The position numbers were made by a program. Shown piece after piece: positions 1-3,000 of a stretch of 39,792 bases of DNA (its first letter is position 1; every line of letters begins with the position of its first letter). This stretch comes from a virus (taxonomy: Duplodnaviria; Heunggongvirae; Uroviricota; Caudoviricetes). Location of the stretch: positions 1 through 39,792 of IMG/VR virus record IMGVR_UViG_2703718791_000008. One strand, written 5' to 3'.

Positions 1-3000
1 AGCGAGCATCGTTGATGATGTAGGTGATCACCCCGAACACCGGACGCGATGTGTCTGATGCTTCATTCTTGTCAGGCAACCTCTCTCGCTTGCCATTACC
101 CAGATTCTCCAGGTGAGGCTCTGGGTGGATGCGATATCTTTTAATGCGGAACTCTCCTCCGTCAGCGCAAACCAGCAATGACCCATCACACGGGCTCAAT
201 GATGCGTCTACAACAAGCAAAGCACCCCTCAGGATACCTTCACGATAATGCGTCGCACCGGCACGCATGAAGTACGTAGCAGCTGGCCTGGTTATGATGC
301 GCTGGTCTAATGATATGCGCTGCTCAACGTAGTCTTGCGCTGGACTCGGGAATCCCATGATGCACCTCCGATAGTTACTGTATACATATACAGCATTACC
401 GATCTGCGGCATCGATCAAGAGCAACAAGTGAGAAAAGGCTTAAGTGAAGATAAATGCTGCAAATTTAATCCTCAAAATCCCTAGCCATGCTGAATGCTA
501 TGTTTGTCTGAGCATTTACCCCAACAATCCATCGCCCACTCTGCAGTGGGGGTTACTCCCGAGTCTTGATAGCGTGTGCTCTATACTCTAAGTTCTTTCA
601 GAACGGTAATTTACAAAAACCAGCTTTATGGACTAATTGTCAATATCAAAGCTATAATGTATTTTTATGATTCCACAGGGCAGTCTAATGGTTGAGCACC
701 AATATTTATACATTTTCGGCATAACCATATTTATTGGCATGGTTTTTTCTTTACCTATATTCAAGTATCTTGATGATGAGGTACATGCCAAGAGAAATAC
801 TGGCATGGATGGATTGAGATATTTTCTTGCTTCATTTGTTGCTATTTTTCATTCTGACTATTTTGTAAGATATATCACGACCGGAAAGTGGGAAACAATA
901 TACAACGACATAAGCTACATAGCTCAGTTTGCAGTGTCGATCTTCTTTATGATAACTGCGTTTTTATTCTGGGGGAAAATTTCTAAAAAGGAAGATGTTG
1001 ACTGGGTCAATCTATACAAAGATAGATTATTTAGGATAGCTCCCGCTACAATATTCACCGCACTGATTTCTATAGTCATAATATTGTATTTAACAAACTA
1101 CCCAAACCCATCAAATTACCTACATGCAAAGGACGTATTTAGGTGGATGGATATGGGATTATTTTACAATTATCCACCAATGAACTACTTCAAGGACTCT
1201 TGGATTTTTCTTGGTGTCTTTTGGACGCTGCAATGGGAATGGGGATTCTATTTTTCTCTGCCGTTACTATATCTCTTCAGAAAAAATGGAACAGCTTTTG
1301 TTCTGGCTCTGATGTTTATATTTGTTTACTTAATTGGATTCATACCCGCACTTAACAATATAAAAGCAGGAATATGTATATTATTTGTTGCGGGTATGTT
1401 GTGTTATGAACTAATTGGTAAGGTTAGGCTAAATAAAATAACGTGCGAGATTATTTTATTGGTCAGTTTGGTTGGGATTTTCACTTATCAACCAGAGCTA
1501 TACTCGACCACTATGCTGCCATGGTATTTTTGCATGCTATTTTCGATATGCAAAGGAGCCAATTTATTTGGCGTGCTATCATTTAATGGTTTCGTAAGGC
1601 TTGGAAACGCCAGTTTTAGCATTTATGTTTTACACAGCGTTGTTTTGTACACGCTTTTCACTTGGATGCATACGAGTAATATAATAAATGAGCCAGAAGA
1701 CTTTAGGGTTATTTATTTAATTGGCAGCTTTGGAATGGTTTGTGTGATTTCATCTTTATGTTACGCATTGATAGAAAGGCCATTCATTAATCTTGGCAGG
1801 AAAGTTAAATTATAAAGAAAGGGGCTAAAAGCCCCTTTCTTTTGGGATGGAAAGATAACACCCAGCATGATTTAGCATGCCATATCAGATTTATAATCAC
1901 ACTGGCTCATCAAAATCACACTCTGGGCAAATCCAGCATTGGAAGCCGTAGCGCTCTCCCTGATACATTTGCGTTCCACATATGGGGCAAAATCTTATCT
2001 CGGAGGCTGGATTTGACGCCTGGTTTTCGTTTTCTGGTGACGCATTAGAATCTGCCATGATTTTCTCCATTAAACAGGATATTGAGCAATAATCGCAGCC
2101 CTGTCATTTGCATACTGCAATTTTCTTGCATTGATCTGTGCTAGGATGGAGTCCTTTTTTGCTGTCTCATTAACACCACCATTAACGGCTGCAGATAACC
2201 ACATCCTGTTTAGTTTCTCAATATCATCCTGATATTCGCTGCTAAGTGAAGAAAGCGCTGATTTTCTCAGTTCAGAATTAGGTGGAGCTAACCTGTCTAC
2301 CCAAGAAGGCATTCCATTAACGACACCTAGTTGTTTACCTTCAGGTGGCGCTGATGTAAATGTCTGAAAAACCATATCATCAATTTCAATGATATCAGAT
2401 AGATCCCATCCAGCATTTTCATAATCATGAAGCATAACCTTTGGGAAAAAAGCTAAATGCATTGTTGACCAAACATAATTAGACATATCAAATCCCCATC
2501 GCTACCCAAAAAATACCATAAGTGCCGACTGAAAGGTTTGTGTATACATTTACGGCCGAGTTACTAACAAAGTCACCCATCAGAATGGGTGCGTTAGTCG
2601 TTTCCTGACTTCCATTTCGATATGTCAAAGAGATAGAGTAACCAGCTCTAGGGAATGGAATTGGCAAGTTTATTCTAGTTCCCGATACCCCACCAGGAAG
2701 ATTCGTTGAGCCGAATTGAAGTATATCCCCCCCAGGGAGTTTGAACCAACCAGTTCCACTACCATATGAATTTGGGAAAAAAGACATGTCTGGAATTTGA
2801 GGGGTCGGAGTACCAAACCCTTCATTCCCCACGTTTCTTGTAGAAGCCGTGCCAAGACTTAGTGCTGTAATAGCAGCCCTGACAAAGGCAGTCGTTGCAA
2901 GTTGCGTTGTGTTTGTTCCTGGGCTAGCAGTAGGGCCAGCTGGAGTTCCCGTAAACGTAGGGCTAGCTATTGGCGCACCACCAAGGAATGAAAGCAGATC

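What the first reader, a model, noticed from the sequence alone, without database searches (positions are those of the whole stretch)
1..400. SOS-regulated UmuD'-like gene that starts at the cleavage site and lacks the catalytic serine
The minus-strand ORF at the left edge begins MGFPSPAQDYVEQR..., corresponding to mature UmuD' (after Cys24-Gly25 cleavage). The region aligned with the UmuD active-site GDSM reads GATHY, so the nucleophilic Ser appears absent. It is preceded by a near-consensus LexA box (376-395). This suggests a pre-activated, non-cleavable UmuD' analogue under SOS control, possibly with a umuC-like polymerase gene beyond the window.
Basis: partly seen in the sequence, partly recalled or inferred. 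Interest (0 to 1): 0.6.

Follow-up and report, generated by a model that had tools for sequence, protein, structure and literature searches.

The report
Prophage HumD, a ready-made UmuD'
The gene at the left edge is an ordinary member of the known HumD family, first described in phage P1: a phage copy of the bacterial mutagenesis protein UmuD that is made already in its shortened, active form and is switched on by DNA damage.

Summary
A minus-strand gene starts at ATG 358-356, behind a GGAGG ribosome-binding site, and runs off the left edge after 119 codons. Its second residue aligns with Gly25 of E. coli UmuD, the first residue of cleaved UmuD'. A LexA box (376-395, 18 of 20 consensus positions) is the only such site in the window.

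It is not new. The protein scores 199 bits against NCBI's curated HumD model (cut-off 120). It is 67% identical to phage P1 HumD. Over all 119 residues it is identical to an E. coli RefSeq protein already named HumD.

"Lacks the catalytic serine" is literally true, with two caveats. The homologous position holds Thr36, and this column is Thr or Ser in 124 of 125 sequences (124 HumD-family proteins plus the UmuD' reference); P1 HumD has Ser. The partner lysine (Lys73, UmuD Lys97) is kept.

The guess that a umuC gene lies beyond the window is not borne out. In relatives humD is the last prophage gene, next to host dacD or next to an integrase. P1, N15 and HK140 also have no polymerase gene beside it.

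Most likely mechanism, shown for P1 HumD and inferred here: LexA cleavage derepresses the gene, and the HumD dimer joins host UmuC without the RecA-dependent cleavage step. Interest is low.

The parts
1..358 (-). humD-type gene, first 119 of 129 codons. The start codon is ATG 358-356; the gene is cut by the left edge of the window.
   Evidence: Translation. NCBIfam HumD equivalog NF051876, 199.2 bits against a cut-off of 120, E = 2e-59. Pfam Peptidase_S24, 27.8 bits against a cut-off of 23.3. PHROG 811 'UmuD-like', 3.5e-47. Identical over 119 of 119 residues to WP_085438526.1, 'HumD family translesion DNA polymerase'. dN/dS against HK140 is 0.06.
365..369 (-). Shine-Dalgarno sequence GGAGG, 6 nt upstream of the ATG.
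   Evidence: Read directly from the sequence.
376..395 (.). LexA (SOS) box TACTGTATACATATACAGCA, with a perfect CTGT-N8-ACAG core at 378-393.
   Evidence: It is the only match with up to 3 mismatches to the 20-nt consensus in the window, and none occurred in 100 shuffles. It lies at the same distance from the ATG as the annotated LexA site of P1 humD and aligns with the boxes of P1 and N15. LexA binding was not tested.
251..253 (-). Codon for Thr36, the position homologous to the UmuD nucleophile Ser60.
   Evidence: MAFFT alignment with UmuD' and 124 HumD-family sequences. The column is T 98, S 26 (25 HumD-family plus UmuD' itself), I 1 (one search gives the HumD-only count). P1 HumD has Ser there (ADSHH).
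140..142 (-). Codon for Lys73, the position homologous to the UmuD general base Lys97.
   Evidence: Alignments. The column is K in 117 of 125 sequences, M in 7 and R in 1.
410..412 (-). Alternative in-frame ATG, 18 codons upstream. Judged not to be the real start.
   Evidence: It has no Shine-Dalgarno sequence and its reading frame crosses the LexA box. The extension is not conserved in P1, N15 or HK140, where stops intervene. Longer database entries look like miscalled starts of this kind.

Best explanation
This is a prophage humD gene: a homologue of E. coli umuD that encodes only the part corresponding to the RecA-cleaved, active form UmuD'.

In an undamaged lysogen, host LexA binds the box at 376-395, just upstream of the ribosome-binding site, and keeps the gene off. 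DNA damage activates RecA and LexA cleaves itself, so HumD is made. Because HumD starts at the residue equivalent to UmuD Gly25, it needs no self-cleavage. The HumD dimer can pair directly with the host's own UmuC to give a polymerase V-like translesion enzyme, skipping the slow RecA-dependent UmuD-to-UmuD' step that normally delays mutagenic bypass.

The gene has no polymerase partner of its own. It is carried as a terminal accessory gene of a lambdoid prophage with a contractile tail, next to an O-antigen-type acyltransferase gene.

Shown here: the homology, the start position, the LexA box, purifying selection, and the absence of a neighbouring umuC in relatives. Taken from the literature on P1 HumD: that it is an already activated form and LexA-regulated (papers read), and that it is a functional UmuD' homologue that facilitates SOS mutagenesis (title of the 1999 paper, which I could not read). 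Its binding to UmuC rests on my memory of that paper's abstract. Inferred for this protein: that it does the same.
For: - The family assignment passes the curated threshold: NF051876, 199 bits against 120.
- It is 67% identical to P1 HumD, 70% to N15 gp26 and 89% to HK140_028.
- It matches the solved UmuD' structure 1umu at E = 1e-19, with residue 2 opposite UmuD Gly25.
- No N-terminal arm is possible in any of four relatives.
- The LexA box is unique in the window and positionally conserved with P1's annotated site.
- dN/dS is 0.06 against HK140, with synonymous sites near saturation.
- The family comprises 585 clusters at 90% identity, and 113 of the 120 listed start MGFPSP.
- No Y-family polymerase gene lies next to humD in five genomic contexts. 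None of the ten ORFs scanned against Pfam, which include most of the window's large ORFs, is a Y-family polymerase, and none is annotated in the 42-kb related prophage.
[quoted passage not shown] McLenigan et al. [quoted passage not shown]
Against: - No experiment exists for this protein or, as far as I could find, for any Thr36-type HumD. The characterised P1 protein has Ser at that position and is only 67% identical.
- No consensus sigma-70 promoter was found around the LexA box, so how LexA represses transcription is not resolved.
- The last 10 codons and everything downstream lie outside the window.
- In some E. coli genomes the same gene is annotated as a pseudogene, so it is dispensable.
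- The structure model was poor (pLDDT 60), so it adds little.
Confidence: 0.85

Rival explanations
1. HumD is a modulator rather than an activator. By forming heterodimers with host UmuD or UmuD', or by occupying RecA filaments or UmuC, it damps or retimes host polymerase V or the UmuD2C checkpoint for the benefit of the induced prophage, instead of promoting mutagenic bypass.
For: The protein keeps the whole UmuD' core and the highly conserved N-terminal GFPSPAxDYVExRI segment, so it could plausibly bind the same partners. From my memory of the 1999 abstract, P1 HumD is poorly expressed and complements well only from a high-copy plasmid.
Against: The title of the 1999 paper on P1 HumD says it facilitates SOS mutagenesis. 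Nothing in the sequence points specifically to inhibition.
Confidence: 0.08
2. HumD is still an enzyme. The Thr36/Lys73 pair forms a working dyad that cleaves another protein in trans, for example host UmuD within a heterodimer, or another S24-type substrate.
For: The column homologous to Ser60 is Thr or Ser in 124 of 125 sequences, while the neighbouring column shows ten different residues. Lys73 is kept in 117 of 125. From established knowledge, UmuD cleavage can occur intermolecularly.
Against: The Met that follows the nucleophile in UmuD (GDSM) is His or Tyr in HumD. Lys73 has been replaced by Met repeatedly, in different sequence backgrounds, which is what is expected if catalysis is not required. 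From general knowledge of serine proteases, Ser-to-Thr changes at the nucleophile usually cripple activity. From memory (Nohmi et al. 1988), engineered UmuD' carrying S60A still supports mutagenesis, so the residue is not needed once the protein is cleaved.
Confidence: 0.04
3. It is a decaying fragment of a umuD gene that lost its 5' end and has no function.
For: It lacks the arm and the Ser. It is annotated as a pseudogene in some genomes.
Against: dN/dS is 0.06. The start, Shine-Dalgarno sequence and LexA box are conserved. Hundreds of full-length 128-129-residue relatives exist in many Enterobacteriaceae and phages.
Confidence: 0.02

Closest known systems
Bacteriophage P1 HumD (AAQ14181.1), founder of NCBIfam NF051876 'HumD family translesion DNA polymerase'
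   Same: Both are 129 residues long and start MGFPSP at the UmuD Gly25 position. They are 67% identical. Both have a LexA box about 20-40 nt upstream of the ATG and no umuC partner alongside. Both carry a C-terminal extension ...NDARxGEFDDxPxx, and both are borne on a temperate phage.
   Different: P1 HumD has Ser at the nucleophile position (ADSHH); this protein has Thr (GATHY). P1 is a plasmid prophage with humD next to lxr and phd-doc. Here the gene is the terminal accessory gene of an integrated lambdoid prophage, beside an acyltransferase gene.
Phage N15 gp26 and phage HK140 gp28 (UmuD-like proteins)
   Same: Both have the same Thr-type motif GATHY[RQ]EGI and the same length. They are 70% and 89% identical to this protein. 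In both phages the gene sits just after the tail-fibre genes, and in HK140 it lies next to attP and int.
   Different: In HK140 a small upstream ORF overlaps the humD-like start codon and a dinI gene lies nearby. N15 is a linear plasmid prophage.
E. coli UmuD / UmuD' (PDB 1umu, 1ay9, 1i4v, 8gmt) and the plasmid homologues MucA, RumA, ImpA
   Same: They share the S24 core (E = 1e-19). The segment GFPSPAxDYVEQRIxL is almost identical, and Lys97 is conserved.
   Different: UmuD is made with a 24-residue arm and must be cleaved at Cys24-Gly25 by its own Ser60-Lys97 dyad on a RecA filament. It is co-transcribed with umuC. HumD has no arm, has Thr in place of Ser60, has a one-residue deletion before it, has His in place of Met61, has an extra 10-residue C-terminal tail, and has no adjacent polymerase gene.

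Membership tests
HumD family (NCBIfam NF051876, equivalog) | Scores above the curated whole-protein cut-off of the family model. | tested here: met
   199.2 bits against a cut-off of 120, E = 2e-59, covering profile positions 1-119 of 129. The generic UmuD model PRK10276 scores 83 bits, below its cut-off of 110.
HumD family (NCBIfam NF051876, equivalog) | The protein begins at the residue equivalent to UmuD Gly25, with no cleavable N-terminal arm. | tested here: met
   M1-G2 aligns with UmuD G25. An in-frame stop lies 20 codons upstream. The only intervening ATG has no Shine-Dalgarno sequence. Relatives have stops 5-9 codons upstream.
HumD family (NCBIfam NF051876, equivalog) | LexA operator in the upstream region. 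| tested here: met
   The box at 376-395 matches 18 of 20 consensus positions, is unique in the window, and aligns with the annotated P1 site. This is a sequence-level test only; binding was not tested.
HumD family (NCBIfam NF051876, equivalog) | Not in an operon with a cognate umuC-type polymerase gene. | tested here: inconclusive
   The downstream region lies outside the window. In the E. coli relative with an identical protein, host dacD follows about 340 nt downstream and the att core lies about 90-115 nt beyond the stop. Elsewhere intS follows. P1, N15 and HK140 have none.
HumD family (NCBIfam NF051876, equivalog) | Substitutes for UmuD' in SOS mutagenesis and binds UmuC. | not testable with these tools
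   Known only for P1 HumD (McLenigan et al. 1999, cited; paper not held).
Self-cleaving S24 peptidases (UmuD, LexA, lambda cI type) | Ser nucleophile in a G-D-S-M type motif. | tested here: not met
   The motif is G-A-T-H-Y, with Thr36 or a gap opposite Ser60 depending on the aligner and His opposite Met61.
Self-cleaving S24 peptidases (UmuD, LexA, lambda cI type) | Lys general base. | tested here: met
   Lys73 aligns with UmuD Lys97, the position mutated to Ala in chain 8gmt_B.
Self-cleaving S24 peptidases (UmuD, LexA, lambda cI type) | An internal Ala/Cys-Gly cleavage site preceded by an N-terminal domain or arm. | tested here: not met
   The protein starts Met-Gly at that site.
Self-cleaving S24 peptidases (UmuD, LexA, lambda cI type) | S24 / UmuD' fold. 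| tested here: inconclusive
   Sequence-level membership is met: Pfam PF00717, 27.8 bits against 23.3, and 1umu at E = 1e-19. The AlphaFold model has a mean pLDDT of only 60. Its best Foldseek hits are UmuD' (1umu, 1ay9, 8gmt), but with TM-scores of only 0.40-0.48.

The most novel reading that the evidence does not exclude
HumD proteins may do more than stand in for UmuD'. Three features are kept under strong constraint although self-cleavage is impossible:
- a hydroxyl residue (Thr or Ser) at the old nucleophile position, together with the Lys;
- a nearly invariant N-terminal GFPSPAxDY segment, the former cleavage-site region;
- a family-specific acidic-hydrophobic C-terminal tail, xGEFDD[CY]P[VL]x, absent from UmuD and loosely reminiscent of the SSB C-terminal tip.

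The old active-site cleft and the tail could together form a new docking module. It might recruit host replication or repair factors to the induced phage genome, or act in trans on host UmuD. That would make HumD a phage-specific re-wiring of translesion synthesis rather than a simple shortcut.
Probability: 0.1. Interest if true: 0.45.

Novelty: already known. Interest (0 to 1): 0.15.

Why it matters
It matters little as a discovery. The gene belongs to a family characterised in phage P1 in 1999, curated by NCBI, and already annotated under that name in E. coli genomes with an identical protein.

It is a useful annotation point. This prophage carries an SOS-inducible, pre-activated polymerase V accessory subunit, which could speed up error-prone lesion bypass, and hence mutagenesis, in lysogens with a host umuC.

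The only mildly new points come from the family survey. About four-fifths of the close HumD relatives sampled have Thr rather than Ser at the old nucleophile position. The Lys is occasionally lost. A conserved C-terminal tail remains unexplained.

Tried and rejected
- **Megablast against phage records.** Window 1-2500 found nothing. tblastn was needed to reach P1, N15 and HK140.
- **Primary literature.** I could not read the primary HumD paper (PMC94175) or the P1 genome paper (PMC523184); neither is held. The functional claims for P1 HumD rest on secondary citations and the paper's title and on my memory of the abstract.
- **Promoter search.** The tool scan and a relaxed hexamer scan of the window, P1 and N15 upstream regions gave no convincing -35/-10 pair near the LexA box. 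The promoter is unresolved.
- **att repeats.** A search for a long direct repeat marking the att sites of the related prophage found nothing at 18 nt or longer. BLAST of the HK140 attP region against both junctions located the crossover zone about 90-115 nt beyond the humD stop. That rejected my passing idea that the gene's 3' end is rebuilt from host DNA at integration.
- **Structure.** The AlphaFold model from 60 close relatives was low-confidence (pLDDT 60). The Foldseek hits to UmuD' are weak (TM 0.40-0.48), so I treat them as not informative beyond the sequence match.
- **Defence role.** A PADLOC scan of HumD gave no hit.
- **Longer N-terminus.** Considered and rejected: the ATG at 412-410 has no Shine-Dalgarno sequence, overlaps the LexA box and is not conserved.

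Full report
**What is in the sequence**

The reverse complement of window 1-358 translates without a stop into 119 residues beginning MGFPSPAQDYVEQRISLDQR... and runs off the left edge. The ATG at 358-356 is preceded at a 6-nt spacing by GGAGG (plus-strand 365-369).

The nearest in-frame stop is 20 codons upstream. One in-frame ATG (412-410) lies between, but three things count against it as the start:
- it has no ribosome-binding site;
- its frame would read through the LexA box;
- the corresponding region is not conserved in relatives, where in-frame stops lie only 5-9 codons upstream of the conserved MGFPSP start.

A few longer database entries look like such miscalled starts.

The 20-nt sequence TACTGTATACATATACAGCA at 376-395 differs from the LexA consensus TACTGTATATATATACAGTA at two positions. 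It is the only match with up to three mismatches in the 39.8-kb window, and no match occurred in 100 dinucleotide-preserving shuffles.

**What it is**

The protein passes NCBI's curated equivalog model NF051876, 'HumD family translesion DNA polymerase', at 199.2 bits against a cut-off of 120. It stays below the cut-off of the generic UmuD model (83 against 110). It also passes Pfam Peptidase_S24 and matches PHROG 811 'UmuD-like protein'.

Against solved structures, the best hits are E. coli UmuD' and UmuD (1umu, 1i4v, 8gmt, 1ay9; E = 1e-19 to 5e-15). Residue 2 lies opposite Gly25 of full-length UmuD, the first residue after the Cys24-Gly25 cleavage.

tblastn against phage genomes gives these identities:

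| Relative | Identity |
|---|---|
| HK140 gp28 | 89% |
| N15 gp26 | 70% |
| P1 HumD | 67% |

The P1 record annotates HumD as 'functionally complements E. coli UmuD'' and annotates a LexA binding site 20-39 nt upstream of the start. The window's box aligns with the P1 and N15 boxes.

An E. coli chromosome (NZ_AP042682.1) carries the same region at 98.8% DNA identity. Its protein is identical over all 119 residues and is already named 'HumD family translesion DNA polymerase' (WP_085438526.1, 129 aa). The window lacks only the last ten codons (YGEFDDYPLK).

**Is it a live gene?**

Against the HK140 homologue, pN is 0.087 and pS is 0.65, giving dN/dS of about 0.06 with synonymous sites close to saturation. 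A search of the large protein collection returned 585 clusters at E ≤ 1e-5. Of the 120 listed, 104 are 128-129 residues long and 113 start MGFPSP. They come from Escherichia, Enterobacter, Citrobacter, Salmonella and Kluyvera, and many are already named HumD. This rules out a decaying fragment. The gene is nevertheless annotated as a pseudogene in some E. coli genomes, so it is dispensable.

**The catalytic dyad**

HumD has a one-residue deletion between the conserved ATYF[MV][RK]A and GI blocks. MAFFT, with 124 HumD-family sequences and UmuD', pairs G34-A35-T36-H37 with UmuD G58-D59-S60-M61. HMMER's pairwise alignment places the gap at Ser60 itself.

The replacement is conservative and patterned, however:
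- The column is Thr in 98 sequences, Ser in 26 (25 HumD-family sequences plus the UmuD' reference) and Ile in 1, out of 125.
- P1 HumD, the experimentally studied member, has Ser (ADSHH).
- The preceding column holds ten different residues.
- The Met that follows the nucleophile in UmuD is His or Tyr in HumD.
- Lys73 aligns with UmuD Lys97 and is Lys in 117 of 125 sequences.

The seven Lys-to-Met replacements occur in different motif backgrounds, so they look like repeated independent losses. My reading is an inference: the dyad is no longer needed for catalysis, since there is nothing to cleave, and the hydroxyl and lysine are retained mostly for structural or binding reasons. From memory, Nohmi et al. 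1988 showed that engineered UmuD' carrying S60A still supports mutagenesis, which fits this reading.

**Genomic context and the predicted partner**

The window is a lambdoid prophage with a contractile-tail module:
- baseplate J, a DUF3383 protein (possibly the tail sheath; my guess) and an SLT-domain protein that is probably the tape measure;
- DnaB-type helicase;
- a cI-like HTH+S24 repressor at 34747-35460.

The related 42-kb prophage in NZ_AP042682.1 lies between dacD and sbcB and has no Y-family polymerase among its annotated genes. None of the ten window ORFs scanned against Pfam, which include most of the large ones, is one.

In that relative, humD is the last prophage gene. The two halves of the HK140 attP region match the two prophage junctions, placing the crossover zone about 90-115 nt beyond the humD stop, with host dacD beyond.

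In other E. coli genomes the same humD-acyltransferase pair sits next to intS at the argW tRNA site. In P1 the neighbours are lxr and phd-doc. In N15 they are a tail-fibre gene and parB. In HK140 they are dinI and attP-int.

This does not weaken the main interpretation, because the P1 protein is reported to work with host UmuC (title of McLenigan et al. 1999, seen; details from my memory of the abstract).

**Mechanism**

Best-supported account:
1. LexA occupies the box just upstream of the ribosome-binding site.
2. After DNA damage, RecA-stimulated LexA cleavage derepresses humD.
3. The HumD dimer, already in the UmuD' form, associates with host UmuC to give a polymerase V-like enzyme, without the RecA-dependent UmuD cleavage step.

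For this particular Thr-type protein, every functional step is inferred from homology. The promoter was not identified: neither the tool scan nor a relaxed hexamer scan gave a convincing -35/-10 pair near the box.

Rivals considered, all less likely (see rival explanations):
- a modulator or inhibitor of host polymerase V;
- a trans-acting Thr/Lys protease;
- a dead remnant.

**Structure**

An AlphaFold model built from 60 close relatives was poor (mean pLDDT 60). Foldseek still ranked UmuD' (1umu, 1ay9) and UmuD on a RecA filament (8gmt) first, but with TM-scores of only 0.40-0.48. I regard this as uninformative beyond the sequence match.

**Comparison with known families, and novelty**

The gene works like, and is a member of, the HumD family. 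Every defining feature that could be tested was met, except that the 'no adjacent umuC' feature could only be examined in relatives. It is not a self-cleaving S24 peptidase in the UmuD/LexA sense, because two defining features fail: the Ser nucleophile and the internal cleavage site behind an N-terminal arm.

Nothing here departs from what is already described and annotated, so I rate it 'already known' and of low interest. The residual points of curiosity are the Thr/Ser toggle at the former nucleophile position, the near-invariance of the former cleavage-site segment GFPSPAxDY, and a HumD-specific C-terminal tail (xGEFDD[CY]P[VL]x) that UmuD lacks. The tail lies outside the window.

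Noticed in passing
L001 7969-7998 (last 10 codons of the identical E. coli gene); also the P1, N15 and HK140 homologues (L003-L005). Outside the window.: HumD proteins carry a conserved C-terminal extension beyond the end of UmuD: x-G-E-F-D-D-[C/Y]-P-[V/L]-x. E, F, D, D and P are each present in at least 120 of 124 family sequences. It is acidic and hydrophobic and, from memory, loosely resembles the SSB C-terminal tip DFDDDIPF. Its function is unknown.
   Followed up: partly
window 35547-37051 (+): Two overlapping genes lie directly downstream of the cI-like repressor gene (34747-35460), in the slot where lambda carries rexAB. 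One is a 192-aa DUF6932 protein that matches the PADLOC candidate defence family PDC-M63A (2e-10). The other is a 309-aa protein with no Pfam or PADLOC hit. This may be a two-gene anti-phage cassette.
   Followed up: partly
window 667-1815 (+): An Acyl_transf_3 family membrane acyltransferase gene (Pfam 3.5e-29) is transcribed divergently from humD. It has about 33-37% G+C against about 53% for humD, which looks like an O-antigen-modifying accessory gene. The humD-acyltransferase pair recurs as a unit in two different prophage contexts in E. coli: the dacD/sbcB site and the argW/intS site.
   Followed up: partly
window 27186-27341 (-): Two phage-borne tRNA genes, tRNA-Thr(tgt) and tRNA-Asn(gtt), lie between the Q-antiterminator and lysis regions. 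The same pair is annotated in the related E. coli prophage.
   Followed up: no
L007 5188-5358 and L008 5188-5412 (E. coli NT1F10 and S1-INA-02-A): In these genomes the same humD gene is annotated as an incomplete pseudogene, while the neighbouring acyltransferase gene is intact. This shows that humD is dispensable.
   Followed up: no
L005 2262-2501 and 1910-2176 (phage HK140): In HK140 the humD-like gene is preceded by a small ORF whose stop codon overlaps the humD ATG (TAATG). A dinI gene lies just upstream on the other strand. No LexA box aligns directly before the HK140 humD start, so its SOS control, if any, must sit further upstream.
   Followed up: no
window 14487-14502, 21442-21457, 35986-36001: There are three further CTGT-N8-ACAG matches, making 4 in all against 0.49 expected. 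None comes within 3 mismatches of the full 20-nt LexA consensus, and all lie inside ORFs on the mechanical ORF list. They are probably chance matches.
   Followed up: partly
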